A stretch of DNA of 60,783 bases, the filler included. It is 5 parts of 5 records of this genome, joined end to end, with 100 filler letters (N's around TTAATTAATTAA, not from the genome) between each part and the next. Parts side by side here need not be neighbours in the genome. Positions count along the whole stretch, not along the records: positions 24,332 to 41,660 come from DRR378314_1926; 4 more parts are not named here. The stretch is one strand, 5' to 3'. Position 1 is the first letter of the stretch; each line of letters opens with the position of its first letter. Shown in pieces: positions 15,648-33,450 of the stretch. The position numbers were made by a program, and so were the translations under genes. The notes under the pieces are model-generated. The model was given only the letters and a program-made list of their open reading frames with translations, did not search any database and was not told the DNA's origin.

Positions 15648-15660
15648 TTGCTGAACCGGA

Positions 15661-16812: not shown

Positions 16813-16838
16813 CAGTATTTCCTTCTGCCTCAACGTAA

Positions 16839-16869: not shown

Positions 16870-16886
16870 ATTGGCCCGGTTTCCCG

Positions 16887-17331: not shown

Positions 17332-17431
17332 NNNNNNNNNNNNNNNNNNNNNNNNNNNNNNNNNNNNNNNNNNNNTTAATTAATTAANNNNNNNNNNNNN
17401 NNNNNNNNNNNNNNNNNNNNNNNNNNNNNNN
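17332..17431. other. Artificial contig spacer
   Basis: N run with TTAATTAATTAA. Confidence 0.99.
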
Positions 17432-17506
17432 CCAGCTCTATTGTGTTCGAGATACGGGGCATGCGCTCATGGTTCATCCATACTTCCGTGCAACCCATTG
17501 CTGCAG

Positions 17507-18409: not shown

Positions 18410-19499
18410 TGCGAAGCTCCTTGGCGTGCAAACGCTCAACAATGATACATGCTATGTAGTAAGCTACACATGGTATTAGCAAATGAACGTATATTGCCTA
18501 ATAAAGTGTATGGGTAAATATGAAAATCCGGTAGCGATGGAGATATCACAGAGGCCGGGCCAGAAGCACCAAGCGCAGTCGAAGCTGCAACGCCGCGGGA
18601 AGCAAAAGTGGCAACGACGTACGTCAACCGGCCAAGTCCAGCAGTACACCATTCCTACATTATACCTTGGAGGCGAAATCATTCCCAGTTGCAAAATTGT
18701 AAGTGCTGCATATGAAAACAGGAAAGTCACCCCAGTCCTACGCCGATGGGGCACACTCCCTGCGCACTGCGTAAAACCAACGGACGGGGAGCAGCAACAT
18801 GGCAAGCGGAACGCCGCACATGCGAGCGTGTGCGGCCGAGAGGCGGGCGCCACTTCCAATCAAAGGCAGTCGCCGGTGCACGGATTTCCAGTGCTCGTGC
18901 GCAATAGTTTCAAATAACCAAGCCCCTTTGGCCGTGCTTCGCTGGGCAAATGTGGGGGCGCTGGTATATTGAAGCACGTCAGTCGGAAGAAACACGGCAC
19001 GCGCGCTACTGCCTTGCCAAGCACATTCCTAACCCTACCCCCAACTCTCATCAGCCCAGCGTCACGGCGGGGGTTGCCGCTCGCTTCTGACGGTGAGCCG
19101 CAGCTTGAGGAGTCCGGAAAAGGGCTATACGCTGCTTGCGTATCAACGGAATCGTGTGGTCCCAGAGATCGCACATATAGTGCACGGAGCTGAATGAAAC
19201 AGCGGCGCTACGCTACTCCTTTTACGCGCGTGCTGGGCAGCGGGAAGCGAAACCGGGGTGCCGTGTTCAATCTTTCGCAAAACAGTGGCGGCAAGAAGAC
19301 AGCGCAAACATCTTGCAAATCATTGTATTCGCTGATACGAACAGGTCCTTACGCACGGCTTGCCATAGACGCGCGATTGGCTCCAACACAGTGGCGGCGA
19401 GCAGACAGCGACAATAATCTTGCAAATCATTGGATTTGCTGATGCTTGCAGCTCCCAGCGCACAGCTTGACGTCGACGCGCCTGGATCGCGTCGCCCGC

Positions 19500-20095
19500 C
19501 GCCGTCGCACCTCGCCAGCATACAAACCAGCGCCGCAGCCCCGCTTCCCGCTGTACACTGTACTATGCCCACGCTGCCCTTCGAGTCGCCAACCAATACA
19601 CTTTCAGTAGATGGTCGCATCGTTCGGCGCACTGTTCCGATCCCATCGCCCGCCGCTGCTGCCGACGCAACCGCTGAGCGCCAAAAGTTCGCGAGCCGCC
19701 GTCGCACCTCGCAAGCAGTCACACCGGCGCCGCAGCCCCCGCTTCCTGCTGTACACCGTACTATGCCCACGCTGTGCTACGAATCGCTAATCAATAAAAT
19801 TTCAGGAGATCCTCGCATCGTTCGGTACACTCCATAGATTGCGCTGTCAGCCGCTGCTGCCGCCGCTGCAGCCACAGCGCGTCAAATGCTCGCGAGGCAC
19901 TGCTGCACCTCGCCCGCCTGCGAACCGGCGCGGCAGCCCCCGTTTCACGCTGTACACAGCCCATTGCCACGTCCTCTCCACCATCGAAACCCCGCAGCTG
20001 TTCACGACTTCTCCGCCCAAAGCAAAATGTCTATGCGCCACTAGTCGGATCGCGTTGTCCGCCGCTGCTGCCGCAACCGCAGCGCGTCCGTGTTC
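19500..20095. repeat. Three diverged ~200-bp tandem repeat units
   Basis: GCTGTACAC at 19550/19748/19949 and GCCGCTGCTGCCG at 19652/19850/20061. Confidence 0.8.
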
Positions 20096-20583
20096 GCCTT
20101 GGTGAGGCGATCGAGTGCCTCGCGGAGCGGCTGGCTGACACTGCACTGTGAAACATTCACCTCGCGCAGCGAGCGGTTCGAGACAAGAGCGTCGCGCAGG
20201 GCCGTCGCACCAACGTCCCCGATGTCGTTTTCGCTCAAGTCCAGCGTCTGCAGCCATCGAGATGTCGAAATCGCCTGGGCAAGCGCGACGGCACCGTCGT
20301 TTCCGATGCGATTTCGGCGTAGGGAAAGTAGCACAAGCCCGGGGCACCGGGGCAGCAAGCTCGCAAGGACCAGCGCGCCTTCGTCGCCGAGCTCGTTGCT
20401 GTCGAGTACCAGCTCGCGCAACTCCCGTTGGTTCTGCAATAGCTCAACCAGCTCCCGCACATGCTTCGGGCGGAACTTCTTCTTGATGATTGATATCTCA
20501 GGAGTAGCTTTCTCGCGCAGCATGCGAACGTGCTCCAAAGCGCGACGTGCGCGGCTGCGCCACAATTTCTGGAACTTGGGCAT
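20041..20583 (-). CDS. Eukaryotic leucine-rich repeat protein (ribonuclease-inhibitor/RanGAP-like LRR)
   Basis: 28-aa repeats LVLDSNELGDEGALVLA, LSLRRNRIGNDGAVALA, LDLSENDIGDVGATAL; start at MPKFQK. Confidence 0.82.
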   Translation of the reverse strand: MPKFQKLWRSRARRALEHVRMLREKATPEISIIKKKFRPKHVRELVELLQNQRELRELVLDSNELGDEGALVLASLLPRCPGLVLLSLRRNRIGNDGAVALAQAISTSRWLQTLDLSENDIGDVGATALRDALVSNRSLREVNVSQCSVSQPLREALDRLTKANTDALRLRQQRRTTRSD

Positions 20584-23014
20584 GCCGCGTCGTCGGCGAG
20601 GAGCGGAGCGCAACGATGCGCTCGCGCGCGAACGAAAAAGGAAACGCGAGCAGCTGGCGGCAGCCAGCGTCAGCGTGCTGTCGGCCTCGCTGCCGCGCGG
20701 AGCAGGCGCAGGATAGTTCACCCTCTGCACTGCGCCCGCTCCCTTCGATAGCAAAACCCAAAAAAAAAACAAATCAGCTGGTTTTGTTACCCCGAATGCC
20801 GAAAGTAGGGCGATGCTCTCCACGAAAGGAAAGCTTTGTGTTTACCGGCAGGCTCTCGCGCAGAACGCCGCGCTGCCAACCCCGCGTGCCGCGCCAGTGC
20901 CACTGGGCACCTTCCTAACGGCACGCTTCGCTAGCGCGTAACCAGAGAGGCGGCCCAACTAGCACGCTCAAACGTGACGTCGCCCGCCAACGCCCTTCCG
21001 TTAATACTGGGAGAGCAGGGTCAGTAGCAAGAGGCTGCGAGTGTAGTATATAAGCGCACCAAGCGCAACCACCACGGAGTGCTCGGCACAAACGCAGATG
21101 CTCGCCGACAGCTCCAACCGAGTGCGGAAGACAACGGAACAGGAAACCCGCCCTCAGAGTGTCGGTTGCGATGGTGGGGCTACGCAGAAGCTTTCTCCTC
21201 CGCAGCCGCTCGAGCCTTCGCTCGGCTTGACCATCACGCTCGACATTCACCGCAATGGTGCCGCTGGACGTCTCTCCCAACGGCGTTGACTTTGCAAGTA
21301 CAGAGTTCATCGTACATTCGATGGGCGTAGATAGCACGGACAACGTCTTTACATTGCACCGGTGTGTCCTACGCAACGCCAGCTTCGGCGCTATACCCGC
21401 CCGCGTACAGGCGGCGGCAGTCGGAGAACGCTCCTGCGATCAGAAGAGCGCCCGAACCCAACTCCCCCACCATCACCAATTGCCGCACGATCGGTGCGCT
21501 GCGCAACCATTCATTCCATACACGCTCTTGAACCATCGTGCAAAACACGCTTAGGGTCGGCGGGCTACTCAGCCTATGCTTCCATGTGTTCCCGGTCCTT
21601 CCGAATGGTAAAGACGTTCTCGAGAGGACCTGCCAGTCAGCCTCCCTTCCGCCGTCCACATAAAATATCCCATCCGCAACTAATAATAAGGTAGAACAGA
21701 CATATCAATATACAGCACGGCCATCTTCCATCGATATCATTCCTTACATCAAAGTTGGAGTGCGTGCCATCAAAAGCCTTCTTAGCTATTGCTCGCGATT
21801 ATGGCACCACGAAGTCGGAGGAACGCCGTGCGCGCTCTCGTGCCACAGCGCGCACTGCGAGTGTGCGCGTTCGAGACACGCGAATTCGCCAGCAACGTGC
21901 ACGGGTGCAATGCTCACTGGCCCAAGGGTATACGCAGGATCCTCACGGGACAGAAGCGATCCGCCTGCCAACGCCATCGATAGCCAAACGCTCTCCGAGA
22001 TCCCCGGAACCAATCCCGTCCGCTCCATGAGCCGCAACATTACCGAGCGTGACCGCAGAGAGACACTTGCGCTCCCAACCTGCAGACATTCGAACCGACC
22101 ACGCACCAGAGAGAGGCGGAGAAGACATGCAAGACCGCGCAGATAAACAGGATACCAATTGTAACGCTAGGTAAAGCGCATAGATACAGGTGTAAAGGCA
22201 TCAGACGCGCGATAAACAGAACCAGTGCCAGAGGTCCAACCCAACGCTTTCATTGCAACGGGTTCGAGGCTGACGCCGCCGCGCGGCGACACCTAAAATA
22301 CCACCACAATAATATATTATATCCCTAAGTATATGCAAGCGAAAATATCAAAAAAAGAGGATACATATCGATATCCTCCGGCCCCGCGTTGCTCGTTTAC
22401 ACACATCCTCGGCGTGCAGCCAAAGAAGAGGCCGCACGGCGGAGGAACACGTATATCATCTTACCCGCTAACTGTAACCCACTGCTCTGCCACACGACTG
22501 CGCGAAAACGAAAAAAAAAAGACTTACAATATCACCAAACCTCAATCCTACAGCATCGGAGCGAAATCAACGACACGATACCATCATCCTGGCTCTATTC
22601 TAGCTGTCGCCAGAAACTTGTGCTTGTAAAACCAAGATTTCAGAGACCGCCGCGCACGAAATACGAACTTCTCGGGAAAACCAACCAGGTCGCGAAGGGC
22701 AAGGCTCGCCCTGGTGCGCGCGCTAACCCTCAGCTTGCTAGCAGTTCCGTGAGTGCCCAGGCCGTACACTCCAGCAACAGCAATGCTTACGGATCACAAC
22801 AGTGACGCCGCGTTCGCAAGCAAGCGCTCAGCAGCTGATCGCACCCATTTGCAGTATGCCGCGCTTTCGCGTCGGCAAACTTGGTTGATGCCTCGGCGTG
22901 TGGCAACCTTTCTCCCCGCAAGCAAGCCTTGAACACACTACGAGAGACACACAACCCAGTATTTCATATCAACACAAGCGCCTCTGTATCAATCGCTTCT
23001 TTCAAGCACAATGG

Positions 23015-24231
23015 TTACTGACGACACTCTGTCGCTGCACTGTGTAGTAGCTCACTCCTTGTGCCGCGCACGATAAAGGAGCAGCAACGAGTGTAGAAGT
23101 GGCAGCGCAAACCGACCTGCACATACGAGGGCGCGCTTGTCGAGTGGCCATAGCCGGGCGGGTGAAACGGCGCCGCGATATAGTCGTACGCAAGCACAGA
23201 CGCCATGCGCTCCGGCGCCTTGAAAATCGCGTGTGTCGCACACGTATGCGTGAACAAGTCAAAAAACAAGACTTTTTCCGCGGCAATCGACCGCCAGAGG
23301 CTAAACGACGAACGGATGCGCTCGTCGTCGCTCCACGACGGATGCGATGGCGCGGCGGCGAGAATCTCGTCCCCGCGCATAGCCTGCACGCGATCGCCCG
23401 AGACACCGTCGCTCTCGTGTGCCAACTTCAGCATTGTATCCACATGATCACACGATGCCCCAGTGCACAGAATGAGAAACGGCCAATCGTTGGGAAGTGC
23501 GCGGTACATCTGCACAAGCGCACGATGAGCGGCGCGAGTAACGGCTTTCGCAGCATTCGCACCAGCTCGCTCCGCCACGGCGCTAGCAGAAGCCTCACTC
23601 ACAATCATGATCGCGAGCTTGAGCGGATGCGAGGGATAGAAGAACTCGACCGTCGGAGGTGCCCGACCGGGGACCAGCTCATCCGTTTGTGTATATTCAA
23701 GCTGCATGTACGGAGACACGTAAACGACAATATTCACACACAGTAGAGGCGGATGAGCATCACTACAGCCTGCCAGAAACGAGTGGCGCCAGAATGCGGG
23801 AAGCAACAATCGCCTGCGACAATCTCGCCGCCAAAAAAAAAAAATCTTACAATTGTGCACGCCTTAACAACGACACAGCTATCATTGTAAACATCAAAAA
23901 AGAGTGACATTCAATCGTAGAACAAAAATACAACGAGCAGCGCCACGGTCGTGCCGCCCCTACGTATTCCTCGGTACATGGCCCCCCGCCGTACATGGAG
24001 AATGCGCTTGTCGTCAGGTTCCGCCAGCACCGCCTCCGGACAATACTCGTAGAACGCCGCGAGTTCTTGCTTTCGCATGTACTTGTAGACGCCGTGTGCA
24101 CCTAAGCATCCCGGAGTAAAATATTTTTCACACGCGAAATCTCCAGCAACAAGAGCAGGCGCAACGCGGTACCTGCAAGACGTCGGCAGCACGGCAGCGA
24201 GACACAGCAGCAGCAGCAGCAGCAGCAGCAG
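23015..24231 (-). CDS. Eukaryotic DUF5672-like (glycosyltransferase-like) secreted or anchored protein; exons 24231..23995 and 23701..23117 (or read-through to the stop at 23015); 5'-partial
   Basis: Poly-Leu N-terminus; intron GTACGG...ATGCAG joins the exons in phase 0; LWRSIAAEKVLFFD...C...YDYIAAPF resembles the DUF5672 core. Confidence 0.6.
24205..24231. repeat. (CAG)9 microsatellite at contig end
   Basis: Nine perfect CAG units; reads CTG (Leu) in frame on the minus strand. Confidence 0.95.
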
Positions 24232-24331
24232 NNNNNNNNNNNNNNNNNNNNNNNNNNNNNNNNNNNNNNNNNNNNTTAATTAATTAANNNNNNNNNNNNN
24301 NNNNNNNNNNNNNNNNNNNNNNNNNNNNNNN
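24232..24331. other. Artificial contig spacer
   Basis: N run with TTAATTAATTAA. Confidence 0.99.
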
Positions 24332-25059
24332 TCACCCGCTTTTACATCGTCTTTTTCACCAGGGTGCAATGGAAACGCCAGCGGCCAGTCGGCGTTGTGC
24401 TTCACTGCTTCCATAAATTCGTCGGTAATCAACAGGCTAAGGTTAAACTGGCGCAGACGACCGGCTTCTCGCTTAGCTTGGATAAACTCACGAACATCAG
24501 GGTGGCCAACATCGAAGGTGCCCATCTGAGCACCTCGACGACCACCTGCGGATGCCACGGTGAAACACATCTTGTCGTAGATATCCATAAACGCCAGCGG
24601 CCCGTTGGTGCCAGCCCCCGCGCCAAACACAAACGCTCCCTTATGGCGCAGCGTCGAAAAGTCGTAGCCAATACCGGCGCCAGACTTCAACGTCATGCCA
24701 GCATCAACGACGGAGTCGAGAATATCGCGCATAGAGTCGCGAATAGTGCGCGAAACCGTGCAGTTAATCAGGCTGACCGCAGGTTTGTAGGCTTCAGCGC
24801 CCGCATTGGAAAGGATTCGTCCGGCAGGAATAGCGCCGTTTTCTAACGCCCAGCGGAATTTTGGCAGCCACTCGTTAGCATTGTCACCTTCAACCGCCGC
24901 TAACGCTCGCGCGACACGCTCAAAGGTAGCACCCACATCCTGATCAACAGGCTGGCTATGGCGATCTTTTAACCGATATTTAGCATCCCAGATATCTTTT
25001 GAGGGAACCTGTAGTGGGACGTCATTCGAAGTCTTCATAGCCTTTGCTGCGGTGCTCAT
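24332..25059 (-). CDS. nrdJ: Adenosylcobalamin-dependent (class II) ribonucleotide reductase, N-terminal part
   Basis: IWDAKYRLK, PAGRILSNAG, SLINCTVS, GIGYDFSTLR, GGRRGAQM; no ATP cone; GAAGGAG RBS. Confidence 0.9.
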
Positions 25060-25148
25060 GTCGCGAAACTCCTTCACAACGGGGTGAAATTAGCGCTCAA
25101 AACGGTGCGATTATACGTTCTGCGACTATGAAGTATAGACTTGACTTT

Positions 25149-25195
25149 ACACTATATGCGGCATTTTTCTTGTTAAAGACTACTACATATAGAAA
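25149..25195. promoter_or_regulatory. Tandem NrdR boxes
   Basis: ACACTATATGCGGCAT (25149-25164) and CTACTACATATAGAAA (25180-25195), 31 bp apart, upstream of nrdJ. Confidence 0.75.
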
Positions 25196-25267
25196 AATCA
25201 GCGCGTTACCTTTTGCTTATCTTCAACAAACGATAGGCTAATGTTTTTCTTGTGCGATGCCACCCCT

Positions 25268-25825
25268 ATGCCTACTTTAAAGCCTTTTGCGTTAGCGGCC
25301 TTCAGCGCCCTACTTTCCAGCACTGCGCTGCCTAGCATGGCAGCAACGTTCAATATTGATGCCGAACAGCCCCACGATCATTGGCAGTCAATGGCGTTAA
25401 CGTTAGGCAGTGAGCGGCACTTTCGCGCCGTGGAAACTCATAGCTATTCGGATGCCACCTTGAGTTTGAACGCAACCCAAGGTGTTTGCGACTTACCATG
25501 GCTGGAAATGCGGGTCACGCTGGCTGAACAGCAAGGCGAAAGTCGCGCGGTTAACTTAGTGCCTACCAGGATCCGGGTGGATGATACGCCTATCATTGAT
25601 ACCATGGCCGAGTTTATTACCGAGCGTGGCGATGATGGGTTTTATGCGCATTTCTACCTAAGCGACCTGCAAACATTAATGGCGCAAATGAGCCAGGGAG
25701 AGCAGCTGTTTATTGGTTTCGATCAACAGGATAGCGACCCTTGGTATATGACCTTTAGTCTTGACGGTGCTGATGATGCCATAGCGAGAATACAGCGCTT
25801 ATGCGACCGCGCCGACGACCAATGA
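25268..25825 (+). CDS. Hypothetical secreted protein (IalB-like C-terminus)
   Basis: Signal peptide ending in SMA-A; C-terminal FSLDGADDAIARIQRLC. Confidence 0.6.
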   Translation: MPTLKPFALAAFSALLSSTALPSMAATFNIDAEQPHDHWQSMALTLGSERHFRAVETHSYSDATLSLNATQGVCDLPWLEMRVTLAEQQGESRAVNLVPTRIRVDDTPIIDTMAEFITERGDDGFYAHFYLSDLQTLMAQMSQGEQLFIGFDQQDSDPWYMTFSLDGADDAIARIQRLCDRADDQ

Positions 25826-25834
25826 TAGCGCGTG

Positions 25835-27874
25835 TCACTGCACGCTTTTGTCAGCGATTTCAACGCGGTTACGCCCATTGTGCTTAGCTCGGTACATCGC
25901 AGCATCGGCCCGGGCGATAATGGTTTTGCAGCTATCATCGGGCTGCCATACTGCGACACCGATGCTGACCGTTATCGCTTGGCCCAAGCCCTTCACCTGC
26001 AGTGTTGCCACTAGCCCACGTAATCGTTCAGCAAGCCCTTCGGCGGCTTCCATACTGGAGTGGGTCGCCAATACCACAAACTCTTCCCCTCCCCAGCGCC
26101 CCAAATGATCACAGCCCCGCAGTGAGCTTTCCACCATGCGTGCTAGCGAAATCAGCACATCATCGCCCACGCTATGGCCGAGGGTGTCATTGATCTGTTT
26201 AAAATGGTCGACGTCAAATAACAACAGCGCGAAAGCCGCCCCATAGCGTTTTGCTGCTACCAGCTCTGCATCAATAGCCTGCTCGATGCGGTAGCGGTTC
26301 CACACCTGAGTGAGCGGGTCAAAATGTGCCAACTGCTCTAACCGCTGATTCGCTTCTGCCAGCGCTTTACGCTCGCGCTCCAGATGCATATTGAGCGTGC
26401 TGATCTCATAAGCAGAAATGGCCAGCGTTAAATCTTCTCCTAAATCTATCGCGGCTAGCCGCTCAACCCGTTGCCAGGCTTCGCTTTTTCCTGTGACCTC
26501 CTCGCACCACGCGTCAGAAGGCGACATCATCATCGGCGGCTGGGATGCAGAAGAGGGTTGCATCGCCCAGTAGAGCGTCTCCACTTGCTCAGGACGAAAA
26601 AACATCAGCCAGCCGCGCTGAGCAGGATCGGTAGGCAGCGGCACGGCGAGTACTCCACTCTGCTCTAGCATGTCTAAAGAGCATGTTAGCGGCTCCTTGG
26701 CTGTCTCTTGGGTACACCATGGGCCACTATGGATATGGGATTTTTCAATCCGCGTGACCAACTGGCCGATCGCTTCCGGCTTGGGCGTATTGCCTGATTG
26801 ATAGATACTGCCTTTCACCCATAACGCAACGCCATTGGCACGAAAGAGCGACTTCCATGTCTCGGCATGCTCGGTAAACAGCTGATAAGGCCCCTGAGGC
26901 TTTAAGCGATTATTACTTGAAAGCACCAGGCTATCTTGTACGCGCTGCAAATAGCGCGCTTCTTGGCGAGCTCTCAGCAGTAACAGCCGCTGCGTAGCCA
27001 TTTGCACCAAGGTGCGTACCGCATCTCGTACGGGCGGCGCTACGGGGTAAGGCGCTGCCGAGTGGCAGAATAGCAGCCCCCAAAGGCCGGTATCTCCCTG
27101 CATGGCCACGCTTAATGCGCCGCGCACGCCAAGTCGCTGTAAGTACTGTTGACGCTCAGGGGCCGGGGCACGCAAGAAGCTGTCACTTACATCTACCACC
27201 ACACTCGCTGGCAGTAAGTGCTCATAGGGTGCTGCGACATCTTGGATCAGCCGCACCGGATGGCGCTCATAGGCGCGCCGTAGTGCAATGGGGAAGTCCT
27301 TGGCGGGAAAGCGTTGCCCTAACAAGGCAGGCAAACGAACCGCCGCTAATTCGACACTCGACTGAGCGCGCCCTTTAGCTAACGACTCGGCTACGATCAA
27401 ACCATGCCAATCACTATCGAAATGGCATACAGACACCCGGTCATGCCCGGTTAATTCTTGTACCGACATCACTAGGTAATCAAGTAGCTCTTCTTGATGG
27501 GTCGCTTCCGCTAAGCGCATCAGGCGTTCGTTCACCGTGCCAAGCAGACGCTGCTTACCGAGGGAATGAAGGGGTTCTATCTCAACTAACACATGCGCAC
27601 CGGCACGGTAAGCATGTAACTGGAAACGGTTTGATCGAGCGGGACACTTAAAGGTGAGAGGCCCCGGCAAACGCTGCTGACCTTGTAGCTCATAGCGTAC
27701 GCGCTGGCTTAAGCGCTTGCCTAGAACGCTGGAGAGCGTTGCGAGACGCCCTTCAGGAAGGCTTACTCTCAGCAATTCAACAAAGTTGCTACTAAATGCC
27801 TGTATGCGCCGACAGTCTGCATCGAGCACCAGTAATGCACCGAACGACTGTAGTAGCGAGTGATGCTTCGACAC
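25835..27874 (-). CDS. PAS-GAF-PHY-GGDEF diguanylate cyclase (degenerate phytochrome, PadC-like)
   Basis: LQSFG, GHDRV, RFPAKDFP, LWGLLFCH, FRPE..W; coiled coil, DPLT, RGCD I-site and GGEEF. Confidence 0.9.
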   Translation of the reverse strand: MSKHHSLLQSFGALLVLDADCRRIQAFSSNFVELLRVSLPEGRLATLSSVLGKRLSQRVRYELQGQQRLPGPLTFKCPARSNRFQLHAYRAGAHVLVEIEPLHSLGKQRLLGTVNERLMRLAEATHQEELLDYLVMSVQELTGHDRVSVCHFDSDWHGLIVAESLAKGRAQSSVELAAVRLPALLGQRFPAKDFPIALRRAYERHPVRLIQDVAAPYEHLLPASVVVDVSDSFLRAPAPERQQYLQRLGVRGALSVAMQGDTGLWGLLFCHSAAPYPVAPPVRDAVRTLVQMATQRLLLLRARQEARYLQRVQDSLVLSSNNRLKPQGPYQLFTEHAETWKSLFRANGVALWVKGSIYQSGNTPKPEAIGQLVTRIEKSHIHSGPWCTQETAKEPLTCSLDMLEQSGVLAVPLPTDPAQRGWLMFFRPEQVETLYWAMQPSSASQPPMMMSPSDAWCEEVTGKSEAWQRVERLAAIDLGEDLTLAISAYEISTLNMHLERERKALAEANQRLEQLAHFDPLTQVWNRYRIEQAIDAELVAAKRYGAAFALLLFDVDHFKQINDTLGHSVGDDVLISLARMVESSLRGCDHLGRWGGEEFVVLATHSSMEAAEGLAERLRGLVATLQVKGLGQAITVSIGVAVWQPDDSCKTIIARADAAMYRAKHNGRNRVEIADKSVQ

Positions 27875-27897
27875 AGAGATGGCCTCAAGAAATCTCT

Positions 27898-28569
27898 TTA
27901 CCCCTCAGTCTGCTGCCTTAGCAACAGTTCAACGCGCCGGTTGGCGGATCTACCTTCCGGTGTTGCGTTACTTTCCATGGGTTGGGTATCGGCGTAACCG
28001 ACTGCCCGCATACGTGAAATAGCAACTCCCTGGCGCTCAAGATGCCGGACCACCGCAATGGCTCGCCCTACCGAGAGATCCCAATTTGAGGGGAAGCGAG
28101 AGGTAGCAATGGGAACATTATCCGTATGCCCTTCTACTGAAATTTGACCCTCAAAGGATGCTAACACTGCCAGAAGGCTTTCTAACACATCTTGCCCCTG
28201 GGGCGTTAGTACGGCATCACCGCTAGGGAAAAGCAAGCTGTCGTCGATGCGCAGCGTAACACCTTCTTCGCCTTGAGAGACACTAACCCCAGGGATATTA
28301 AGCTCAGTCATTCGCGGCTTGAGCCCGCTGTGCCGGGGATGGATACCGGTTGCTAAGCTGGCCAACGGAAGCGAGGTGATAGCACTTACAGAATGCACTC
28401 TATCGCGGTCAAAGGCTTCCCCTCCCCCCGGCGGCGTCAACGCAAGCAGTAAGACAAACAGCGTGATTAACAGCGTTAATACGTCTAAATAGCTCGTTAG
28501 CCACCCTTCATCGCCCTCCCCAGGTACAGTGGGCAATTCCAACGCGTGCCGTGAATCACGATCTAGCAT
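27898..28569 (-). CDS. motB: Flagellar stator B subunit (MotB/PomB/MotS-like)
   Basis: WLTSYLDVLTLLITLFVLL TM segment with conserved Asp; OmpA domain GHTDN...NWDLS..RA...NRRVE. Confidence 0.88.
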   Translation of the reverse strand: MLDRDSRHALELPTVPGEGDEGWLTSYLDVLTLLITLFVLLLALTPPGGGEAFDRDRVHSVSAITSLPLASLATGIHPRHSGLKPRMTELNIPGVSVSQGEEGVTLRIDDSLLFPSGDAVLTPQGQDVLESLLAVLASFEGQISVEGHTDNVPIATSRFPSNWDLSVGRAIAVVRHLERQGVAISRMRAVGYADTQPMESNATPEGRSANRRVELLLRQQTEG

Positions 28570-28573
28570 GGCG

Positions 28574-29392
28574 CTACCCTTTTGCCGCAGAACTAACCGT
28601 TGGCCGCGGTTTTACAGCGGCATCGCGGATCTCGTCATGATAGTTAGCAACGAAGGAATTGAGCGTTTCTTCAATAAAAGAAGGCAGCCGCCGTTTGGTA
28701 ATTAACGAAATGCCTTCCAGCACCATGTTCATGGTGATAAGGCGCTCTTCCGTGCGCCGCTCTAGCTTGACGGCAATCGGTTTGAACACCAAGTTGGCGA
28801 GCAGAATACCGTAGAACGTTGTCAGCAGAGCCACCGCCATGCGCGGGCCAATAACGTCAAGATCGCCTGCATCCATCACTTCCAGCATATTGACCAAGCC
28901 CACCAAAGTACCGATCATGCCAAACGCGGGCGCGTAGGTGGCCATGGTACGAAATATCTGCGCCTCAGCATGCTCCCGTGCTTTTAATCGTGCGATGCGC
29001 CAGCGCAGCATATCGAAAATTTCGTCCTCTTTCGTGTTAGCAATCACCAGTTGAATCCCGGTGCGCAAAAAGGGGTTACGAGTGTGCTCTAGCTCCTTCT
29101 CAACCGCCCTGACATCGCCTTTAAACCACAAGCGCGCCATGGAAACCAGTTCGTTGATATCATCACGCACATAGGTATTTTCACGCCGAAACACCAATCC
29201 CACCAGGCGCACCACGCGTAGCACTTCTTTCAGCGGATAACTAATAAAGGTAGCCGCCAAGGTGCCCGTTACCACAATGGCTAGCCCCGGCAAGTTAATA
29301 AAGCTTTCTGGCGACTCTGCAGTAAAAAACAGCACGCTTACCAGCAACAGCATGCTGGCAAAAATACCGATCAGCGTAGATGGGTTCATCAA
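28574..29392 (-). CDS. motA: Flagellar stator A subunit (PomA/MotP-like)
   Basis: APAFGMIGTLVGLVNML and MAVALLTTFYG. Confidence 0.88.
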   Translation of the reverse strand: MMNPSTLIGIFASMLLLVSVLFFTAESPESFINLPGLAIVVTGTLAATFISYPLKEVLRVVRLVGLVFRRENTYVRDDINELVSMARLWFKGDVRAVEKELEHTRNPFLRTGIQLVIANTKEDEIFDMLRWRIARLKAREHAEAQIFRTMATYAPAFGMIGTLVGLVNMLEVMDAGDLDVIGPRMAVALLTTFYGILLANLVFKPIAVKLERRTEERLITMNMVLEGISLITKRRLPSFIEETLNSFVANYHDEIRDAAVKPRPTVSSAAKG

Positions 29393-29428
29393 CGGCTCCT
29401 CGCCGGTTAGTCGTGATTAATAGTGGCG

Positions 29429-30130
29429 TTAGGTGGTGTCATATAAGCGAGCGCGAAGCCTGCTAATCGCTTGGCTGTGAAGCTGGGAGACTCGGGATTC
29501 GGTCACACCCAGCACCGCCCCGACTTCTTTAAGGTTCAGCTCTTCTTGGTAATACAACGCCATCAGTAGCTTTTCACGCTCAGGTAAGGCGTCAATCGCG
29601 TCAATTAACGACTGGCGTTGCTGTTTATCTAACAACTGATCGAAGGGCAGGTTAGTGGCTTCCTCCCTTGCGGACTCGGCCCCTTCGGCCACCAGTTCTT
29701 CGAAGGGCAGCAACTGGCCACTGTTCGTATCATTGAGCAATTGCTGATACTCACTAAGCGGCATATCCAGGTCACGCGCGATCTCACCCTCTTCCGGCGG
29801 GCGCCCTAACTGCTGTTCAAGGCGACGCACCGCATCATCCACGGCTCTGGCAGAGCGGCGTACACTACGCGGCAACCAGTCACGTGTGCGCAGCTCATCC
29901 ATCATGGCACCGCGAATACGCTGACTTGCAAACGTGGCGAACGTTGCTCCCTGGGTCGCATCAAAACGCCCTAGCGCTTCTAATAAACCCACCATGCCAG
30001 CTTGAATAAGATCATCCAACTCAATACTTGCGGGTAGTCTTACCTGCAGCGTTAAGGCCTGACGTCTTACCAGTGGCATGTATTGGGTTAACAGCTCGCT
30101 CTGTTTAATCCTGCCTTGTGCTGTATACAT
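29429..30130 (-). CDS. fliA: RNA polymerase sigma-28 factor
   Basis: DDLIQAG, RIRGAMMDELR..DW.PRS, VTESRVSQLHSQA. Confidence 0.97.
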   Translation of the reverse strand: MYTAQGRIKQSELLTQYMPLVRRQALTLQVRLPASIELDDLIQAGMVGLLEALGRFDATQGATFATFASQRIRGAMMDELRTRDWLPRSVRRSARAVDDAVRRLEQQLGRPPEEGEIARDLDMPLSEYQQLLNDTNSGQLLPFEELVAEGAESAREEATNLPFDQLLDKQQRQSLIDAIDALPEREKLLMALYYQEELNLKEVGAVLGVTESRVSQLHSQAISRLRARLYDTT

Positions 30131-30156
30131 CCTCGTGCCTCACGGCTGAACTCTGT

Positions 30157-30597
30157 TCACTGGTAATTCACAATCACTTGCAGTTCCTGCACCCGTACTG
30201 GGCGCTGGCCCGGCGTCAACGCAAAACGAAAGTGCAGCGGCCCACTGACCTGTTTTCCGGCTAACGCAGTGGTTGAACCGCGCATAGCAGTTAAAGGAAC
30301 ACACTGCTCAGGGTGGCATAGCCACGCATTAACCGGCGCATTAACCGGCATTTGAAAACGCCAATGAATACGCTCTATCGCAGCATGCTCTACCTGCGCC
30401 CCTGCTGGCGGCTGAATGGGCTGACTGCTGACAGCTCGGTCACTCATCGCGACCAGTACGCTGGGCACCTCACTACTCCAACTGCCCGTCGCGGCATAAG
30501 CACTCATGGTGATGACGCTTAGCGCCACCATCAACACGCTTTTGAGCAGCCTGTCAGCTTTGCAGGTATCGACCTTGAAGTCAGCGAGCATCGACAT
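30157..30597 (-). CDS. flhE: Flagellar protein FlhE
   Basis: Exported; LC...CVPL...G.T.ALAG and C-terminal QVIVNYQ; start uncertain. Confidence 0.85.
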   Translation of the reverse strand: MSMLADFKVDTCKADRLLKSVLMVALSVITMSAYAATGSWSSEVPSVLVAMSDRAVSSQPIQPPAGAQVEHAAIERIHWRFQMPVNAPVNAWLCHPEQCVPLTAMRGSTTALAGKQVSGPLHFRFALTPGQRPVRVQELQVIVNYQ

Positions 30598-30664
30598 TGT
30601 TATTCCTTATCGGGGCGCTTGATAGCCGCTGTTAAAGCACGGCTACATAGCGTCAGGCTAGCTG

Positions 30665-31243
30665 TCATCGCGCCAGCAGTAAAAGCTCTATATCCAAGTA
30701 ATAGCTGGCTGCTTCGCGCAGGTTATCGAGTAGACCTCGGCGCGGCAAATCTGGCTCGTGCAGCGCTAACAGCTGCCTAGGGCCACCGTTTTCCTGCATT
30801 TGCCGCAACGAGCGGTACATCTGTGCGAAAGCATCGGCATCGCTATTAATCCATAGTGCCCAACGCGGAAAGCGCTCTTTCAGTTGGCTAAGATTAGCGG
30901 CATCCGCATTGACGATGTGAATATCCCAATCATCCGGGTCGCCAGCCCAACGTCGCCCCAGCACTGACCATTGGGCTAGGCGCCCTTTTACTCTTGCCAC
31001 CTGCTGATCGCCACCGTTAGGCATACCGATCACGATAAGCGGCTTCTGCGGCACCGAGGGCGATGCGCTGGTTTGCGCTTGGGCAGCAGTTGGCGGCACC
31101 GTTAAAGAATCGGTCATAGCGGTCAGTGGTTCAGCCGCAAGTTCGTCTCCCGTGGGATCACTCTCAACTGACTCTGCTTGGCGCTGCTGGCGCTGTAAAT
31201 CTGCCCACTTGCGCAGGCCCGCTGCCTGATCCGGGGCGCTCAT
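30665..31243 (-). CDS. Degenerate FlhG/FleN-like protein lacking the ATPase motifs
   Basis: N-terminal DQAAGLR; occupies the flhG position between flhF and fliA; no GKGGVGK Walker A. Confidence 0.65.
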   Translation of the reverse strand: MSAPDQAAGLRKWADLQRQQRQAESVESDPTGDELAAEPLTAMTDSLTVPPTAAQAQTSASPSVPQKPLIVIGMPNGGDQQVARVKGRLAQWSVLGRRWAGDPDDWDIHIVNADAANLSQLKERFPRWALWINSDADAFAQMYRSLRQMQENGGPRQLLALHEPDLPRRGLLDNLREAASYYLDIELLLLAR

Positions 31244-33450
31244 GCCAGCCCCTCACGGCTAACGCTGCTGAGTTGGCGAATGGCGTCACGAGCCATAAAC
31301 GCGTGAACAAGCGCATCTAGCATCGCTGTGTCGCGCCGCTTACGCGTGGTGGCCAACAACCTTAACAAATCGGAACGCAGTGCTATCGCAGCGTCATCAT
31401 TGGCGATATCTAAGTGTCCCGCTGCAGCAGCGACACCGCTGGCCATCAATAAGCGTACCTCTGTGCTTACTTCGCCATCATCCGCATCTTTCAACTGCTG
31501 CCAAGCGCGTTTGGTTAGGCTAGACACCCCTTCGCTTTGCAGCTGGATAACCAGCAGCGAACGCACATCTGCACCTAATCGAGCAGGTGTTAACCAGTAG
31601 CGGCGCGCGATGCGTTTGCCATTTTCTGGATCGCGAACTTCACCAACCCATGCCAACAGCGGAGTACCAGCGGCGTCCTCGACAGCAATATGGGTGTGCC
31701 ATAGCTGCACCGTTTGACCACGAAAACGTAGATCAGTGTGATGTGTGAGCGGGCTATCTGTGAACAGCTGACGCTGGGCATAACGCTCGCCCTGACAGTA
31801 TACCCGTTGAGTGGCAGCTACTTGCGTGATCCAGGTCAAGTGTTGGGCTTCTAGCCATGCTAACGTGGCGGGGTCGGGAAACACGGGGAGCAGATGTACG
31901 GCGGCCCCCATCGTTTCGCCTTGGTGCAGCAGCCGTGATTGCCAGCCTGCGGGCTGACGGTGCTGTAGGCTGGTTAGCGCTAGCCAACCACCATCGGCGT
32001 CTAGTCCAAGATCGGGCATCGACCAGTCACAGCCTCGCTCATTACGGCGGGGAGACCATGCCATGCCCAGCCCCTTATCCGCGCAGGGCTCGCTAGCCAG
32101 TAGTGCATCCAAGCGTTTATCTTGCAGCACGCCCGGTAAGGAGGCGATATCCCATACCGACTCTAGCGCTGAAAACCCAACAATCCTTTCACGCAGCCGC
32201 GTCAGCACAGAGCTGAGGCGGCGCCCTTGCCCCAGCACGTCCCGCGACCAGCGCGGCAGACTCACCGAGTGAGGCTGCGCAGCGGAGGGCGAAGATTGCT
32301 CTTCACGCACCCTCCCCAATGGGGTATTAAGCGCTTGATCGATCAGCGCAGCAGGGTCCGCAACCGCCATATCTTCTGGAACACGTTGCCCGTACGAACC
32401 AAATAACACGCGCAAGCCATGGCGTATGACAATATCTAGCACGGGGGCTAACCGGCCAGCTTCGTCCTGCTTGGTAATAATGCAATCATCTAACTCAGCG
32501 CCAGCCGCCCGTGCGGCTTGGCGATAGCGCAACACGACCTCTTCTAATGTTTCAGGCTGGCTAGCTGCATTCAACAGCAGCACTAAGCGCACGGACGCTT
32601 GCCCACCCTGCAAATGGGCAATTTGCTCAATCACACGCTGGTCACGCTGACTCATACCGACGGTGTCGATAATCACCCACTGTTTACCTTGCAGTCGTCC
32701 GACCAGCTCATCAATCGGCTGCTCGGCGTCTAAGGCATACATGGGGGTATCCAGCAGGCGGGCGTAAATTCGTAGCTGCTCGTGGGCACCAATACGAAAG
32801 CTATCGGTGGTGACAAGGGCCACAGGGCGCGTACCGTGGCGCATCACGAAACGTGCTGCTAGTTTCGCAGTGGTGGTAGTTTTCCCCACCCCCGTAGGCC
32901 CCACCAGCGCGACAATTCCCGCTTGATCGAAAAAACCGGTTTCTTCTTTCAGTACCGGTAACCGCGCCATTAGCTGCCCACGAAGCCACTCGATTGCAAG
33001 CGCGCTATCGGCATCCGGCTGAGCCAATGACGTCGGCAGCGCCGCCAGCACCTCGTCGCTTAGCTCCTCGCTGAAACCAACGCTAAGCAGCTGTTGGCGC
33101 AAACGAAAGATTGGGTCGTCAGTGGTGGCAGAGACGGGCGCATCGGCAGCAGGCTGCCGCTGGGCAAGCAGCTCCCGCATCTCCTGCATCTCGCGCAGCA
33201 AGCGTTCACTCATTGCCTGCAGCGGATCGGAATCTTGCGCTGAAAAGGCGATTTGGGGAGCTGGGGTAGGTGGAGGTGGCGACGTAGGGGAAGGTTCAAA
33301 ATGATCGACCGCTTCATCCGCCATCGCCAATATTTCAACCCCACCCTCGGTACGGCGATTGGCGACAATTAAAGCGTCATCACCTAATGTTTCGCGCACT
33401 TGGCGCATCACATCGCGGCTGTTTGCTCCAACAAATCGTCTCACGCTCAT
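31240..33450 (-). CDS. flhF: SRP-type GTPase FlhF with long C-terminal extension
   Basis: GPTGVGKTTT, TDSFRIGA, DTVG, TKQDE, GQRVPED. Confidence 0.95.
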   Translation of the reverse strand: MSVRRFVGANSRDVMRQVRETLGDDALIVANRRTEGGVEILAMADEAVDHFEPSPTSPPPPTPAPQIAFSAQDSDPLQAMSERLLREMQEMRELLAQRQPAADAPVSATTDDPIFRLRQQLLSVGFSEELSDEVLAALPTSLAQPDADSALAIEWLRGQLMARLPVLKEETGFFDQAGIVALVGPTGVGKTTTTAKLAARFVMRHGTRPVALVTTDSFRIGAHEQLRIYARLLDTPMYALDAEQPIDELVGRLQGKQWVIIDTVGMSQRDQRVIEQIAHLQGGQASVRLVLLLNAASQPETLEEVVLRYRQAARAAGAELDDCIITKQDEAGRLAPVLDIVIRHGLRVLFGSYGQRVPEDMAVADPAALIDQALNTPLGRVREEQSSPSAAQPHSVSLPRWSRDVLGQGRRLSSVLTRLRERIVGFSALESVWDIASLPGVLQDKRLDALLASEPCADKGLGMAWSPRRNERGCDWSMPDLGLDADGGWLALTSLQHRQPAGWQSRLLHQGETMGAAVHLLPVFPDPATLAWLEAQHLTWITQVAATQRVYCQGERYAQRQLFTDSPLTHHTDLRFRGQTVQLWHTHIAVEDAAGTPLLAWVGEVRDPENGKRIARRYWLTPARLGADVRSLLVIQLQSEGVSSLTKRAWQQLKDADDGEVSTEVRLLMASGVAAAAGHLDIANDDAAIALRSDLLRLLATTRKRRDTAMLDALVHAFMARDAIRQLSSVSREGLA

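What the first reader, a model, noticed from the sequence alone, without database searches (positions are those of the whole stretch)
25835..27874. 'Blind' phytochrome diguanylate cyclase at the end of the flagellar stator operon
Seen: full PAS-GAF-PHY-coiled coil-GGDEF (PadC-like) architecture with intact GGEEF and RxxD, but photosensory residues are systematically changed. The N-terminal extension with the biliverdin Cys is missing: the protein starts 7 aa before LQSFG, and an upstream in-frame stop excludes a longer start. DIP is DFP, the GAF C/M-H pair is ER, the conserved GAF Tyr position (xYxF) is Cys, WGG is WAM and PRxSF is lost. The frame is intact, and the gene lies 23 nt after motB. 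Inference: a phytochrome scaffold repurposed for a non-light input (redox, non-covalent ligand or stator contact) that makes c-di-GMP next to the motor.
Basis: partly seen in the sequence, partly recalled or inferred. Interest (0 to 1): 0.75.

Follow-up and report, generated by a model that had tools for sequence, protein, structure and literature searches.

The report
Light-blind phytochrome diguanylate cyclase after motB
This gene encodes a c-di-GMP-making enzyme whose red-light-sensor half has lost its pigment-binding residues yet is still carefully conserved, and in this group of salt-loving bacteria it sits as the last gene of a flagellar motor operon.

Summary
ORF 25835-27874 (-) encodes 679 aa with PAS_2, GAF, PHY, a long helix and GGDEF. 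Its best solved relative is the red-light cyclase IsPadC.

- **Lost:** the N-terminal biliverdin Cys. DIP is DFP, the pocket Tyr is Cys, the pocket His is Arg, and PRxSF is gone.
- **Kept:** GGEEF, RxxD, the propionate-binding Arg residues and the second pocket His.
- **Not decay:** 69 of 69 orthologues (49-94% identity) carry the Cys. pN is 0.14 against pS 0.72. The 42-residue linker is kept in 68 of 69.
- **Context:** 5 of 6 orthologous loci keep flhB..fliA-motA-motB-DGC. Sighted relatives have a heme oxygenase gene directly upstream in 3 of 4 loci; blind ones never do.
- **Already in print:** Böhm et al. 2022 mention a Halomonas meridiana homologue "missing all essential motifs". They could not purify it.

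Best reading: a bilin-free, probably basally active cyclase made together with the stator. A new thiol or ligand input at the invariant pocket Cys is the main rival. It is a new variant of a known kind, of moderate interest.

The parts
25835..27874 (-). Whole gene: 679-aa PAS-GAF-PHY-coiled coil-GGDEF protein (bilin-less PadC homologue), GTG start
27875..27897 (-). 23-nt gap between the motB stop and the DGC start, with GAGG 8 nt before the GTG and an in-frame TGA; no terminator-like site
27572..27856 (-). PAS_2 domain (residues 7-101). The N-terminal segment with the biliverdin Cys and the PIHxPG-type motif is absent upstream of it
26990..27493 (-). GAF domain (residues 128-295), the former bilin pocket
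27425..27427 (-). Cys150 codon (TGC) at the position of the strictly conserved pocket Tyr (Tyr176 in D. radiodurans numbering). Cys in 69 of 69 clade rows; Tyr in 11 of 11 sighted rows
   Evidence: residue naming from PMC7164956 passages
27290..27298 (-). DFP in place of DIP (residues 193-195). Asp kept in 65 of 69 rows; Phe in 67 of 69
27152..27157 (-). Glu240-Arg241 in place of the x-His pair of SPxH. Arg in 60, Gln in 8 and Leu in 1 of 69 rows
27062..27064 (-). His271, the retained second pocket His (first His of CHH); His in 66 of 69 rows
26420..26890 (-). PHY domain (residues 329-485)
26507..26569 (-). Tongue remnant W436..W456: WAM instead of WAG, no PRxSF, 6 residues shorter than in IsPadC, low-confidence tip (442-452)
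26318..26443 (-). 42-residue sensor-effector linker (L478 to D519 of DxLT, counted inclusively), the '+14' class. It lies inside one predicted helix, 469-517
   Evidence: counting rule and length 42 for HmPadC+14 from PMC9587094
25865..26329 (-). GGDEF domain (residues 516-670)
26078..26119 (-). I-site RGCD (586-589) and active-site GGEEF (595-599)
27898..28569 (-). MotB-family stator protein (OmpA and MotB_plug domains; nearest NCBIfam model MotD, below cut-off)
28574..29392 (-). MotA-family stator protein (nearest NCBIfam models MotP/PomA, below cut-off)
29429..30130 (-). FliA (sigma-28), above the NCBIfam cut-off
25241..25825 (+). Convergent 194-aa ORF with a signal-peptide-like N-terminus and no family. 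Its stop lies 9 nt from the DGC stop. It is syntenic in L001-L005 and a homologue lies near a sighted PadC in L007

Best explanation
What is shown. The gene encodes a bilin-free descendant of the '+14-linker' lineage of phytochrome-activated diguanylate cyclases (PadC).
- It has the PadC architecture and fold.
- It has lost the Cys-bearing N-terminal segment, the pocket Tyr, the Ile of DIP, the central pocket His and the PRxSF tongue motif.
- All domains are under strong purifying selection.
- The GGEEF site, the RxxD site and the 42-residue linker length are kept.
- In Vreelandella the gene lies directly behind fliA-motA-motB.
- No heme oxygenase gene sits upstream, although one does in sighted relatives.

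What is inferred.
- The protein no longer senses light.
- Its PAS-GAF-PHY module persists as the parallel-dimer, helical-spine scaffold. That scaffold holds two GGDEF domains in a productive arrangement through the coiled coil.
- In IsPadC a tongue-to-pocket latch keeps the enzyme off in the dark. That latch is gone here, so the enzyme is probably basally active and limited by I-site product inhibition.
- Its output is then set mainly by when it is made, that is, together with the stator and FliA.
- The c-di-GMP would feed back on motor or biofilm targets. No such target, for example a PilZ protein, lies in the window.
For: Architecture and homology
- Pfam finds the four domains.
- phmmer against PDB gives IsPadC 5llw at E 1.7e-101.
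- The AF2 model has mean pLDDT 87.1 and one helix over 469-517.
- Foldseek's top six chains are IsPadC, best E 1.6e-61, TM 0.61.

Loss of photosensory parts
- The motif changes are seen.
- I took the 67 columns that are at least 90% conserved in 11 sighted rows. In the 69 blind rows 46 are kept, 14 lost and 7 mixed.
- The lost columns include the Cys, Tyr176, Ile208, Ser257, His260 and PRxSF positions.

Selection
- Against L001: pN 0.142, pS 0.716.
- pN by part: PAS 0.24, GAF 0.11, PHY 0.18, linker 0.026, GGDEF 0.083.
- For comparison, MotB is 0.12 and FlhF 0.17.
- Linker length is 42 in 68 of 69 rows.

Operon context
- Gaps of 4 to 67 nt, or a 4-nt overlap, separate the genes from flhF to the DGC.
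- No intergenic terminator-like site was found on the minus strand.
- 5 of 6 blind-clade loci keep flhB-flhA-flhF-x-flhE-fliA-motA-motB-DGC.

Chromophore supply
- Heme_oxygenase (PF01126) lies directly upstream of the PadC gene in 3 of 4 sighted loci (L008, L009, L010; not L007).
- It lies upstream of none of 7 blind genes (window, L001-L006).

Mechanistic precedent (passages of PMC5336353)
- The stable tongue conformation inhibits the register switch of the IsPadC linker.
- A tongue-deleted IsPadC has substantially raised dark activity: 48 +/- 6 dark against 30 +/- 1 light in that paper's Table 1.
Against: - No biochemical data exist. The only reported attempt on a clade member (HmPadC+14) failed for lack of expression (PMC9587094).
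- Apo-IsPadC is reported to be unstable (PMC6433076).
- The replaced pocket residues are not merely tolerated but fixed: Cys150 in 69 of 69 rows, Phe194 in 67 of 69, Arg or Gln241 in 68 of 69. Tyr-to-Cys also recurs in other blind lineages (P0128, P0139). This hints at a specific new role for the pocket beyond a scaffold.
- Residues that bind the bilin propionates are kept (Arg208 68 of 69, Arg235 69 of 69, Tyr244 67 of 69, His271 66 of 69). A pure scaffold model does not require that.
- The Billgrantia locus L006 has no flagellar genes within 10 kb, so the stator link does not hold for the whole clade.
- Co-transcription is inferred from spacing only.
- Synonymous sites are saturated, so the dN/dS values are rough.
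- No c-di-GMP receptor lies in the window.
Confidence: 0.5

Rival explanations
1. Repurposed sensor. The remodelled bilin pocket (invariant Cys150, Phe194, Glu240-Arg/Gln241) is a new input site. It could be a thiol-based redox or electrophile switch, or a site for a non-bilin ligand. It would still drive the coiled-coil register and so regulate the cyclase.
For: - Cys150 is present in 69 of 69 blind rows, against Tyr in 11 of 11 sighted rows.
- Tyr-to-Cys also occurs in separate blind lineages on the tree (P0128, P0139).
- The lost pocket columns were replaced by new conserved residues rather than becoming variable.
- GAF is the most constrained sensory domain (pN 0.11) and the linker is nearly invariant (pN 0.026).
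- A heptad-compatible linker length is kept in 68 of 69 rows, and also in other blind lineages at 28, 35 or 42 residues.
- Precedent: a bacteriophytochrome that lost its chromophore and became a redox sensor (Vuillet et al. 2007, EMBO J). I saw only its citation in a reference list; the paper is not held, so its content is recalled.
Against: - No second invariant Cys that is new to the clade was found to pair with Cys150. Cys270 is also common in sighted rows (73%), and Cys387 and Cys649 are absent from the Billgrantia-type rows.
- Tyr (TAY) to Cys (TGY) is a single transition, so recurrence could reflect easy mutation.
- No coordinates were available to check pocket geometry.
- Conservation is equally expected if these residues simply fill and stabilise an empty pocket.
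Confidence: 0.3
2. Still a photoreceptor. It would bind a bilin non-covalently, or through Cys150 as a new attachment site, and respond to light in an atypical way.
For: - Asp193, Arg208, Arg235, Tyr244, Ser255 and His271 are retained. By offset arithmetic these are the counterparts of Asp207, Arg222, Arg254, Tyr263, Ser274 and His290 (residue roles for all but Arg222 from PMC7164956 passages; the Arg222 role is recalled).
- A new invariant Cys lines the former pocket.
- That Cys-less bacteriophytochromes can hold biliverdin non-covalently is recalled, not checked here.
Against: - The central His, which PMC7164956 calls strictly conserved, is Arg or Gln.
- The knot-forming N-terminal segment is missing.
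- The Arg-Ser of PRxSF, which latches the tongue to Asp207, is gone.
- No heme oxygenase gene lies upstream of any of 7 blind genes, against 3 of 4 sighted ones. None was found among the window ORFs scanned.
- Böhm et al. class the Halomonas homologue as lacking all essential motifs.
Confidence: 0.07
3. Stator-coupled cyclase. The protein docks on MotA/MotB, or on the motor, and its activity reports stator engagement. This would be analogous to MotC stimulating SadC in Pseudomonas aeruginosa. It is not exclusive of the other readings.
For: - The gene lies directly behind motB in the window and in 5 of 6 clade loci.
- Precedent for a stator-cyclase interaction comes from the abstract of bioRxiv 10.1101/483339.
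Against: - In that precedent the contact goes through SadC's transmembrane region. This protein has no room for a membrane segment, since PAS_2 starts at residue 7.
- Billgrantia (L006) keeps the blind protein without neighbouring stator genes.
- Gene order alone is weak evidence of binding.
Confidence: 0.1
4. A decaying gene: a dead photoreceptor on its way to loss.
For: Five hallmark photosensory features are gone.
Against: - The frame is intact here and in orthologues down to 49% identity.
- pN is far below pS in every domain.
- The replacement residues are fixed.
- Linker length is invariant in 68 of 69 rows.
- GGEEF and RxxD are kept in every row that reaches that region.
Confidence: 0.03

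Closest known systems
IsPadC, phytochrome-activated diguanylyl cyclase of Idiomarina sp. A28L (PDB 5LLW/5LLX/6ET7)
   Same: Same domain order and fold: PAS-GAF-PHY, helical spine, coiled-coil linker, GGDEF. The sequence match covers residues 7-671 (E 1.7e-101). It is the top Foldseek hit. It has GGEEF and RxxD.
   Different: IsPadC has the N-terminal Cys, DIP, the pocket Tyr and His, and PRKSF, and it is switched on by red light. Its linker is 35 residues (+7); here it is 42 (+14). About 31% identity.
HmPadC+14 of Halomonas meridiana (Böhm et al. 2022, PMC9587094; accession listed in the supplement)
   Same: [quoted passage not shown] It is 670 aa with linker length 42 (+14). The taxon group, length class and linker length match the clade found here. 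It is very probably an orthologue, but its sequence was not compared here.
   Different: It is only mentioned there. Expression was too low to purify. In the passages and searches I made, that paper says nothing about conservation across a clade, the invariant Cys or flagellar context ('flagell' occurs 0 times in the main text).
Chromophore-less, redox-sensing bacteriophytochrome of Rhodopseudomonas palustris (Vuillet et al. 2007, EMBO J 26:3322)
   Same: A natural phytochrome that lost its bilin and kept the scaffold for another input. This is recalled; only the citation was seen.
   Different: Its output is a histidine kinase, not GGDEF. It belongs to a different lineage and context. Its paper could not be read here.
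SadC-MotC (Pseudomonas aeruginosa): a diguanylate cyclase stimulated by a flagellar stator protein (bioRxiv 10.1101/483339)
   Same: It links a stator set with c-di-GMP synthesis (abstract).
   Different: SadC is a membrane protein contacted through its transmembrane region. It is not a phytochrome homologue. The abstract says nothing about gene order.

Membership tests
PadC (phytochrome-activated diguanylate cyclase) as defined in PMC9587094 | Conserved Cys in the N-terminal segment (C17 in IsPadC) that binds biliverdin | tested here: not met
   The protein starts 8 residues before the conserved Gln. The in-frame stop 10 codons upstream leaves no room, and those codons hold no Cys.
PadC (phytochrome-activated diguanylate cyclase) as defined in PMC9587094 | DIP motif in the GAF pocket | tested here: not met
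   DFP at 193-195; Phe in 67 of 69 clade rows.
PadC (phytochrome-activated diguanylate cyclase) as defined in PMC9587094 | [quoted passage not shown] | tested here: not met
   No counterpart in the alignment to IsPadC. The tongue is 6 residues shorter.
PadC (phytochrome-activated diguanylate cyclase) as defined in PMC9587094 | GGDEF/GGEEF motif | tested here: met
   GGEEF at 595-599.
PadC (phytochrome-activated diguanylate cyclase) as defined in PMC9587094 | Coiled-coil linker of a heptad-compatible length between PHY and GGDEF | tested here: met
   42 residues by the paper's inclusive count (+14); 68 of 69 clade rows. One helix over 469-517 in the model.
PadC (phytochrome-activated diguanylate cyclase) as defined in PMC9587094 | Biliverdin binding and red-light regulation of cyclase activity | not testable with these tools
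   Needs spectroscopy and enzyme assays.
PadC homologous lineage (common descent, not function) | Groups with PadC proteins in a tree, and PAS_2-GAF-PHY-GGDEF domains all above Pfam cut-offs | tested here: met
   Quick ML tree of 62 rows: the window protein lies in a 100* clade of 18 blind rows, nested among sighted PadC-like rows (LG+G4, SH-aLRT only, midpoint root).
GGDEF diguanylate cyclase | Complete GGDEF domain with GG[DE]EF active site | tested here: met
   PF00990 positions 1-161 of 161, 151 bits against a cut-off of 23.8. TIGR00254 156 bits against 37.4.
GGDEF diguanylate cyclase | RxxD inhibitory site five residues before GG[DE]EF | tested here: met
   RGCD-HLGRW-GGEEF. The spacing rule is recalled from PleD.
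GGDEF diguanylate cyclase | Converts GTP to c-di-GMP | not testable with these tools
   Enzyme assay needed.
Chromophore-less redox-sensing bacteriophytochrome (R. palustris type) | Phytochrome scaffold without the bilin-binding Cys | tested here: met
Chromophore-less redox-sensing bacteriophytochrome (R. palustris type) | Histidine kinase output | tested here: not met
   The output is GGDEF.
Chromophore-less redox-sensing bacteriophytochrome (R. palustris type) | Activity controlled by redox state through cysteines | not testable with these tools
   Only the invariance of Cys150 is seen.
Stator-stimulated cyclase (SadC-MotC type) | Transmembrane region that contacts the stator | tested here: not met
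   PAS_2 starts at residue 7, and the domains and model leave no membrane segment.

The most novel reading that the evidence does not exclude
The former bilin pocket has become a new sensory site built around the invariant Cys150. It could be a thiol switch, or a site for a non-bilin ligand or an unusual bilin linkage. It would still drive the 42-residue coiled coil. The cell would then couple a non-light cue (redox, electrophile or metabolite) directly to c-di-GMP synthesis, timed with stator production. Blind PadC forms arose more than once, so this would be a recurrent route by which phytochromes are recycled into other sensors.
Probability: 0.25. Interest if true: 0.75.

Novelty: new variant of a known kind. 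Interest (0 to 1): 0.5.

Why it matters
Phytochrome photosensory modules are widely used as models of long-range signalling and as optogenetic parts.

A natural lineage keeps the whole PAS-GAF-PHY-coiled-coil machinery under selection after discarding the chromophore. It shows which parts of the scaffold matter without light. It may also reveal how the apo state is stabilised; apo-IsPadC is reported unstable. If the pocket has a new input, it would be a template for non-light sensors.

Placing such a cyclase at the end of a fliA-motAB operon also offers a simple, testable link between stator synthesis and c-di-GMP in halophilic Gammaproteobacteria.

The basic fact, a Halomonas PadC homologue without the essential motifs, is already in print. 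The added value here is the clade-wide conservation, the fixed replacement residues, the loss of the heme oxygenase partner and the flagellar synteny.

Tried and rejected
- **Sigma-28 promoter.** The pattern TAAA-N14-16-GCCGATA (consensus recalled) gave 0 matches. GCCGATAA with 1 mismatch gave 67 matches against about 45 expected. One, CCCGATAA at 30607-30614 (-), lies just before flhE but only about 10 nt from its ATG. This is not convincing.
- **Promoter and terminator scan of 24900-31400.** Counts were at or below shuffle expectation. There is no intergenic terminator on the minus strand. A small hairpin at 25830-25845 (+) lies behind the convergent ORF.
- **Heptad-register scoring of the linker.** Blind and sighted rows give the same two phases with similar score gaps, so it is uninformative about a locked or switchable register.
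- **The search for related loci.** The chosen patterns (GRWGGEEF, [VI]WNRYRIE) were swamped by unrelated GGDEF genes. Only 10 of 79 loci held a full-length relative, so synteny rests on 6 blind and 4 sighted loci.
- **The listing of cluster members.** Organisms of the unnamed representatives P0121-P0269 therefore stayed unknown, except for what a later homologue search named.
- **My own early note.** I had written that the second pocket His is changed to Ser. That was wrong: the His 30 residues after the first pocket His is kept, and the variable residue is the one after it.
- **Complex prediction.** Not run. I do not claim binding to MotA or MotB, neighbouring genes alone are not reason enough by the tool's own guidance, and a homodimer would pass by likeness to IsPadC.
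- **Convergent ORF 25241-25825.** No Pfam or NCBIfam family. The Atlas gave only unnamed clusters.
- **Not possible here.** Whole genomes were not available, so I could not search them for bphO, a PilZ receptor or a sighted paralogue.
Full report
**What is there**

The minus-strand ORF 25835..27874 encodes 679 aa from a GTG start.
- The frame has a TGA ten codons upstream. The ten codons between hold no Cys and no usual start codon.
- The upstream ORF 27898..28569 is a MotB-family protein with OmpA and MotB_plug domains. It ends 23 nt before the GTG, and a GAGG lies 8 nt before the start.
- Pfam finds PAS_2 (7-101), GAF (128-295), PHY (329-485) and GGDEF (516-670, 151 bits), all above the curated cut-offs.
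- The best solved relative is the red-light-activated cyclase IsPadC (5llw), E 1.7e-101 over residues 7-671.
- An AlphaFold2 model built on 25 aligned sequences has mean pLDDT 87.1 and pTM 0.64. It shows one helix over 469-517. Confidence is low only at residues 1-3, 169-177 and 442-452.
- Its six best Foldseek matches in the PDB are IsPadC chains, best E 1.6e-61, TM 0.61.

**The photosensory residues**

| Feature | IsPadC | This protein |
|---|---|---|
| N-terminus | Cys-bearing segment present | starts about 22 residues later; segment absent |
| DIP motif | 'fpasdip' | 'fpakdfp' |
| Pocket Tyr | 'drvmiyqf' | 'drvsvchf' |
| Pocket His | 'splh' | 'aper' |
| Tongue start | 'wag' | 'wam' |
| Tongue motif | 'prksf' | no counterpart; tongue 6 residues shorter |
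| Active and inhibitory sites | GGEEF, RxxD | GGEEF, RGCD (intact) |

Passages of PMC7164956 call Tyr176, Ile208, Asp207, His260 and Tyr263 strictly conserved in D. radiodurans numbering. They name Arg254, Ser257, Ser272/274 and His290 as propionate or D-ring partners. They also describe the Arg466:Asp207 salt bridge as the link to the tongue. By offset arithmetic on the alignments, this protein has:
- Changed: Cys150 for Tyr176, Phe194 for Ile208, Ala238 for Ser257, Arg241 for His260. No Arg466 or Ser468.
- Kept: Asp193, Arg235, Tyr244, Ser255 and His271.

Two corrections to the finding. PadCs have WAG rather than WGG. The second pocket His is retained.

**It is a conserved clade, not a one-off**

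The word-indexed search listed 120 of 161 hits. Rows P0001-P0072 are orthologues at 49-94% identity. They come from Vreelandella, Halomonas and Billgrantia, and the nearest (94%) is named Vreelandella venusta.

I compared 69 'blind' rows with 11 'sighted' rows.
- Blind rows: the window protein plus P0001-P0072, after dropping four truncated rows (P0042, P0058, P0062, P0065).
- Sighted rows: P0073, P0075, P0077-82, P0086, P0088, P0118. P0074, P0076 and P0109 were left out.

Results:

| Position | Blind rows (of 69) | Sighted rows (of 11) |
|---|---|---|
| Canonical N-terminal C-x-x-E-P-[IV]-H-x-P-G segment | none | Cys column conserved in all 11 |
| 150 | Cys 69 | Tyr 11 |
| 194 | Phe 67 | Ile 11 |
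| 241 | Arg 60, Gln 8, Leu 1 | His 10 |
| 193 (Asp) | kept in 65 | conserved |
| 208 (Arg) | kept in 68 | conserved |
| 235 (Arg) | kept in 69 | conserved |
| 244 (Tyr) | kept in 67 | conserved |
| 271 (His) | kept in 66 | conserved |

- Of the 67 columns that are at least 90% conserved in the sighted rows, 46 are kept, 14 lost and 7 mixed in the blind rows.
- Several lost columns carry a new fixed residue rather than becoming variable.
- GRWGGEEF and RxxD appear in every row that reaches that region.
- A 12-residue GAF insert (about 166-177, low pLDDT) occurs only in the window protein and P0001-P0006.

**Selection**

Against the orthologue in L001 (76% identity), pN is 0.142 and pS is 0.716. 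Synonymous sites are therefore saturated and the ratios are rough.

| Part or gene | pN against L001 |
|---|---|
| PAS | 0.24 |
| GAF | 0.11 |
| PHY | 0.18 |
| Linker | 0.026 |
| GGDEF | 0.083 |
| MotB | 0.12 |
| FlhF | 0.17 |
| MotA | 0.03 |

L004 gives the same picture. The sensory module is thus constrained about as much as its flagellar neighbours.

Linker length was counted as in PMC9587094, from the Ile495-equivalent to the Asp of DxLT, inclusive. It is 42 residues in 68 of 69 blind rows. This is the '+14' class, seven residues longer than IsPadC.

**Wider family**

An exhaustive phmmer over 1.84 billion representatives gave 7207 hits at E 1e-30 or better.
- Among the full-length PadC-like rows I tabulated, further blind forms appear (P0121, P0122, P0124, P0127, P0128, P0130, P0131, P0134, P0139, P0144, P0145, P0153, P0182, P0074).
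- I built a quick ML tree of 62 of the 75 tabulated rows, keeping those of 640-720 aa. Settings were LG+G4, SH-aLRT only, midpoint root.
- The tree puts the window protein in a 100* clade of 18 blind rows.
- The other blind rows are scattered among sighted ones. Parsimony needs 5 changes, and starred branches force at least 2. Motif loss therefore happened more than once.
- Named relatives of the deep blind branch include a Marinobacter sp., Halomonas ventosae and H. marinisediminis, all with a 42-residue linker.
- Sighted proteins with a 42-residue linker, such as P0075 (Haliea atlantica) and P0275, show what the ancestor probably looked like.

**Genomic context**

In the window the following genes lie on one strand, separated by gaps of 4-67 nt or a 4-nt overlap:
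- flhB
- flhA
- flhF
- a 192-aa ORF without a family
- flhE
- fliA
- motA-family
- motB-family
- the cyclase

The scan found no terminator-like site in any intergenic gap on that strand.

The same order is found in 5 of 6 blind-clade loci: L001 Halomonas sp. DWK9, L002 V. lionensis, L003 H. olivaria, L004 a MAG and L005 V. azerica. The Billgrantia campisalis locus L006 (52% identity) has no flagellar genes within 10 kb.

The four outgroup loci L007-L010 (34-40% identity) all carry the Cys, Tyr, DIP, His and PRxSF-like motifs.
- Three of them have a Heme_oxygenase gene directly upstream: L008 Thioalkalivibrio versutus, L009 Oceanimonas marisflavi and L010.
- None of the 7 blind genes has one upstream.
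- None was found among the window ORFs scanned.

**What is in print**

I read passages of Böhm et al. 2022 (PMC9587094) and searched its supplement.
- The paper defines PadCs by the N-terminal Cys, DIP, PRXSF and GGDEF/GGEEF.
- HmPadC+14 is 670 aa with linker length 42. Its expression was too low for purification.
- The main text has no word starting with 'flagell'.

A search for phytochrome + diguanylate cyclase + Halomonas returned only this paper. A search on Cys-less phytochrome GGDEF proteins added nothing on this clade. So the bare observation is known, but uncharacterised.

Passages of Gourinchas et al. 2017 (PMC5336353) state three things:
- The stable tongue conformation blocks the register switch of the linker in the dark.
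- A tongue-deleted IsPadC has substantially raised dark activity.
- A variant that stabilises register 2 is constitutively active.

PMC6433076 notes that apo-IsPadC is unstable in E. coli. The abstract of bioRxiv 10.1101/483339 shows a stator protein (MotC) stimulating a cyclase (SadC) through its transmembrane region.

**How it most likely works**

Shown:
- A PadC-lineage protein without the bilin attachment site and without the tongue latch.
- An intact catalytic site and inhibitory site.
- Conservation in all domains.
- In Vreelandella, a position as the last gene of a fliA-motAB run.
- No adjacent heme oxygenase gene.

Inferred:
- It is blind to light.
- The sensory module is kept as the dimeric scaffold that positions the two GGDEF domains through the 42-residue coiled coil.
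- The dark-state latch is absent, so it is probably basally active and limited by product inhibition.
- Its c-di-GMP output follows flagellar late-gene expression.

I put this at 0.5.

The main rival, at 0.3, is that the remodelled pocket is a new sensor built around the invariant Cys150. In its favour are the fixed replacement residues and the near-invariant linker. The two readings differ only in an experiment that I cannot run. Residual photoreception (0.07), direct stator docking (0.1, not exclusive) and decay (0.03) are less likely, for the reasons given under the rivals.

**Verdict**

- It fails three of the four motif criteria of PadC membership, but it belongs to the PadC lineage by descent and fold.
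- It is a new variant of a known kind.
- Interest is moderate (0.5), because the core fact was already noted in 2022 and no function is shown.

Noticed in passing
window 9000-25100: A run of truncated housekeeping genes. They are: only the C-terminal part of UvrB (10499-11059 -); only the C-terminal part of SecA (11072-12133 +); a whole DnaJ (15664-16890 -); only the last ~110 residues of DnaK/HSP70 (16890-17375 -); and only the first ~247 residues of a ribonucleotide reductase (24283-25089 -). The orthologue of that reductase in L001 is a whole 709-aa ORF. Homology to L001 and L004 stops at window ~24338, and the rest of the reductase is nowhere in the window. This looks like breakpoints, an insertion or an assembly chimera.
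   Followed up: partly
window 17376-24282: About 7 kb between the DnaK fragment and the reductase fragment. Its only family hits are one LRR_6-type ORF (20044-20841 -; Pfam) and a weak, below-cut-off NCBIfam STM4015 match on that same ORF. There is no blastn match in the plasmid or phage collections, no Rfam family and no tRNA, and the Atlas gave nothing for ORF 23015-23860. Its origin is unexplained.
   Followed up: partly
window 25241-25825 (+); L007 7810-8397: A 194-aa ORF with a signal-peptide-like N-terminus and no family lies convergent to the cyclase, with 9 nt between the two stops. It is syntenic in L001-L005. A 48%-identical homologue lies about 1.5 kb upstream of a sighted PadC in the Halomonas MAG locus L007. 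The PadC-neighbour link may therefore predate the flagellar position.
   Followed up: partly
L004 13390-13941; L005 13405-13953: Two orthologous loci carry an extra GGDEF-encoding gene between the blind cyclase and the convergent ORF. It is 37% identical to the GGDEF domain of the window protein. It is absent from the window and from L001-L003.
   Followed up: no
window 51163-52335 (-): A second GGDEF protein of 390 aa, with an N-terminal part that has no Pfam family.
   Followed up: no
window 30665-31243 (-): A 192-aa ORF with no Pfam or NCBIfam family lies between flhF and flhE, where Pseudomonas-type clusters have fleN/flhG (recalled). It is conserved at 50-62% identity in L001-L005.
   Followed up: no
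L002, L003, L005: Many flagellar genes in these loci, and the cyclase too (in L002 and L005), align to the window proteins in two or three frame-shifted pieces. This suggests sequencing or assembly indels in those records rather than real pseudogenes.
   Followed up: no
window 36869-41620 (-): A chemotaxis cluster (cheZ, cheY, an MCP, cheB, cheR) lies next to the flagellar export genes.
   Followed up: no
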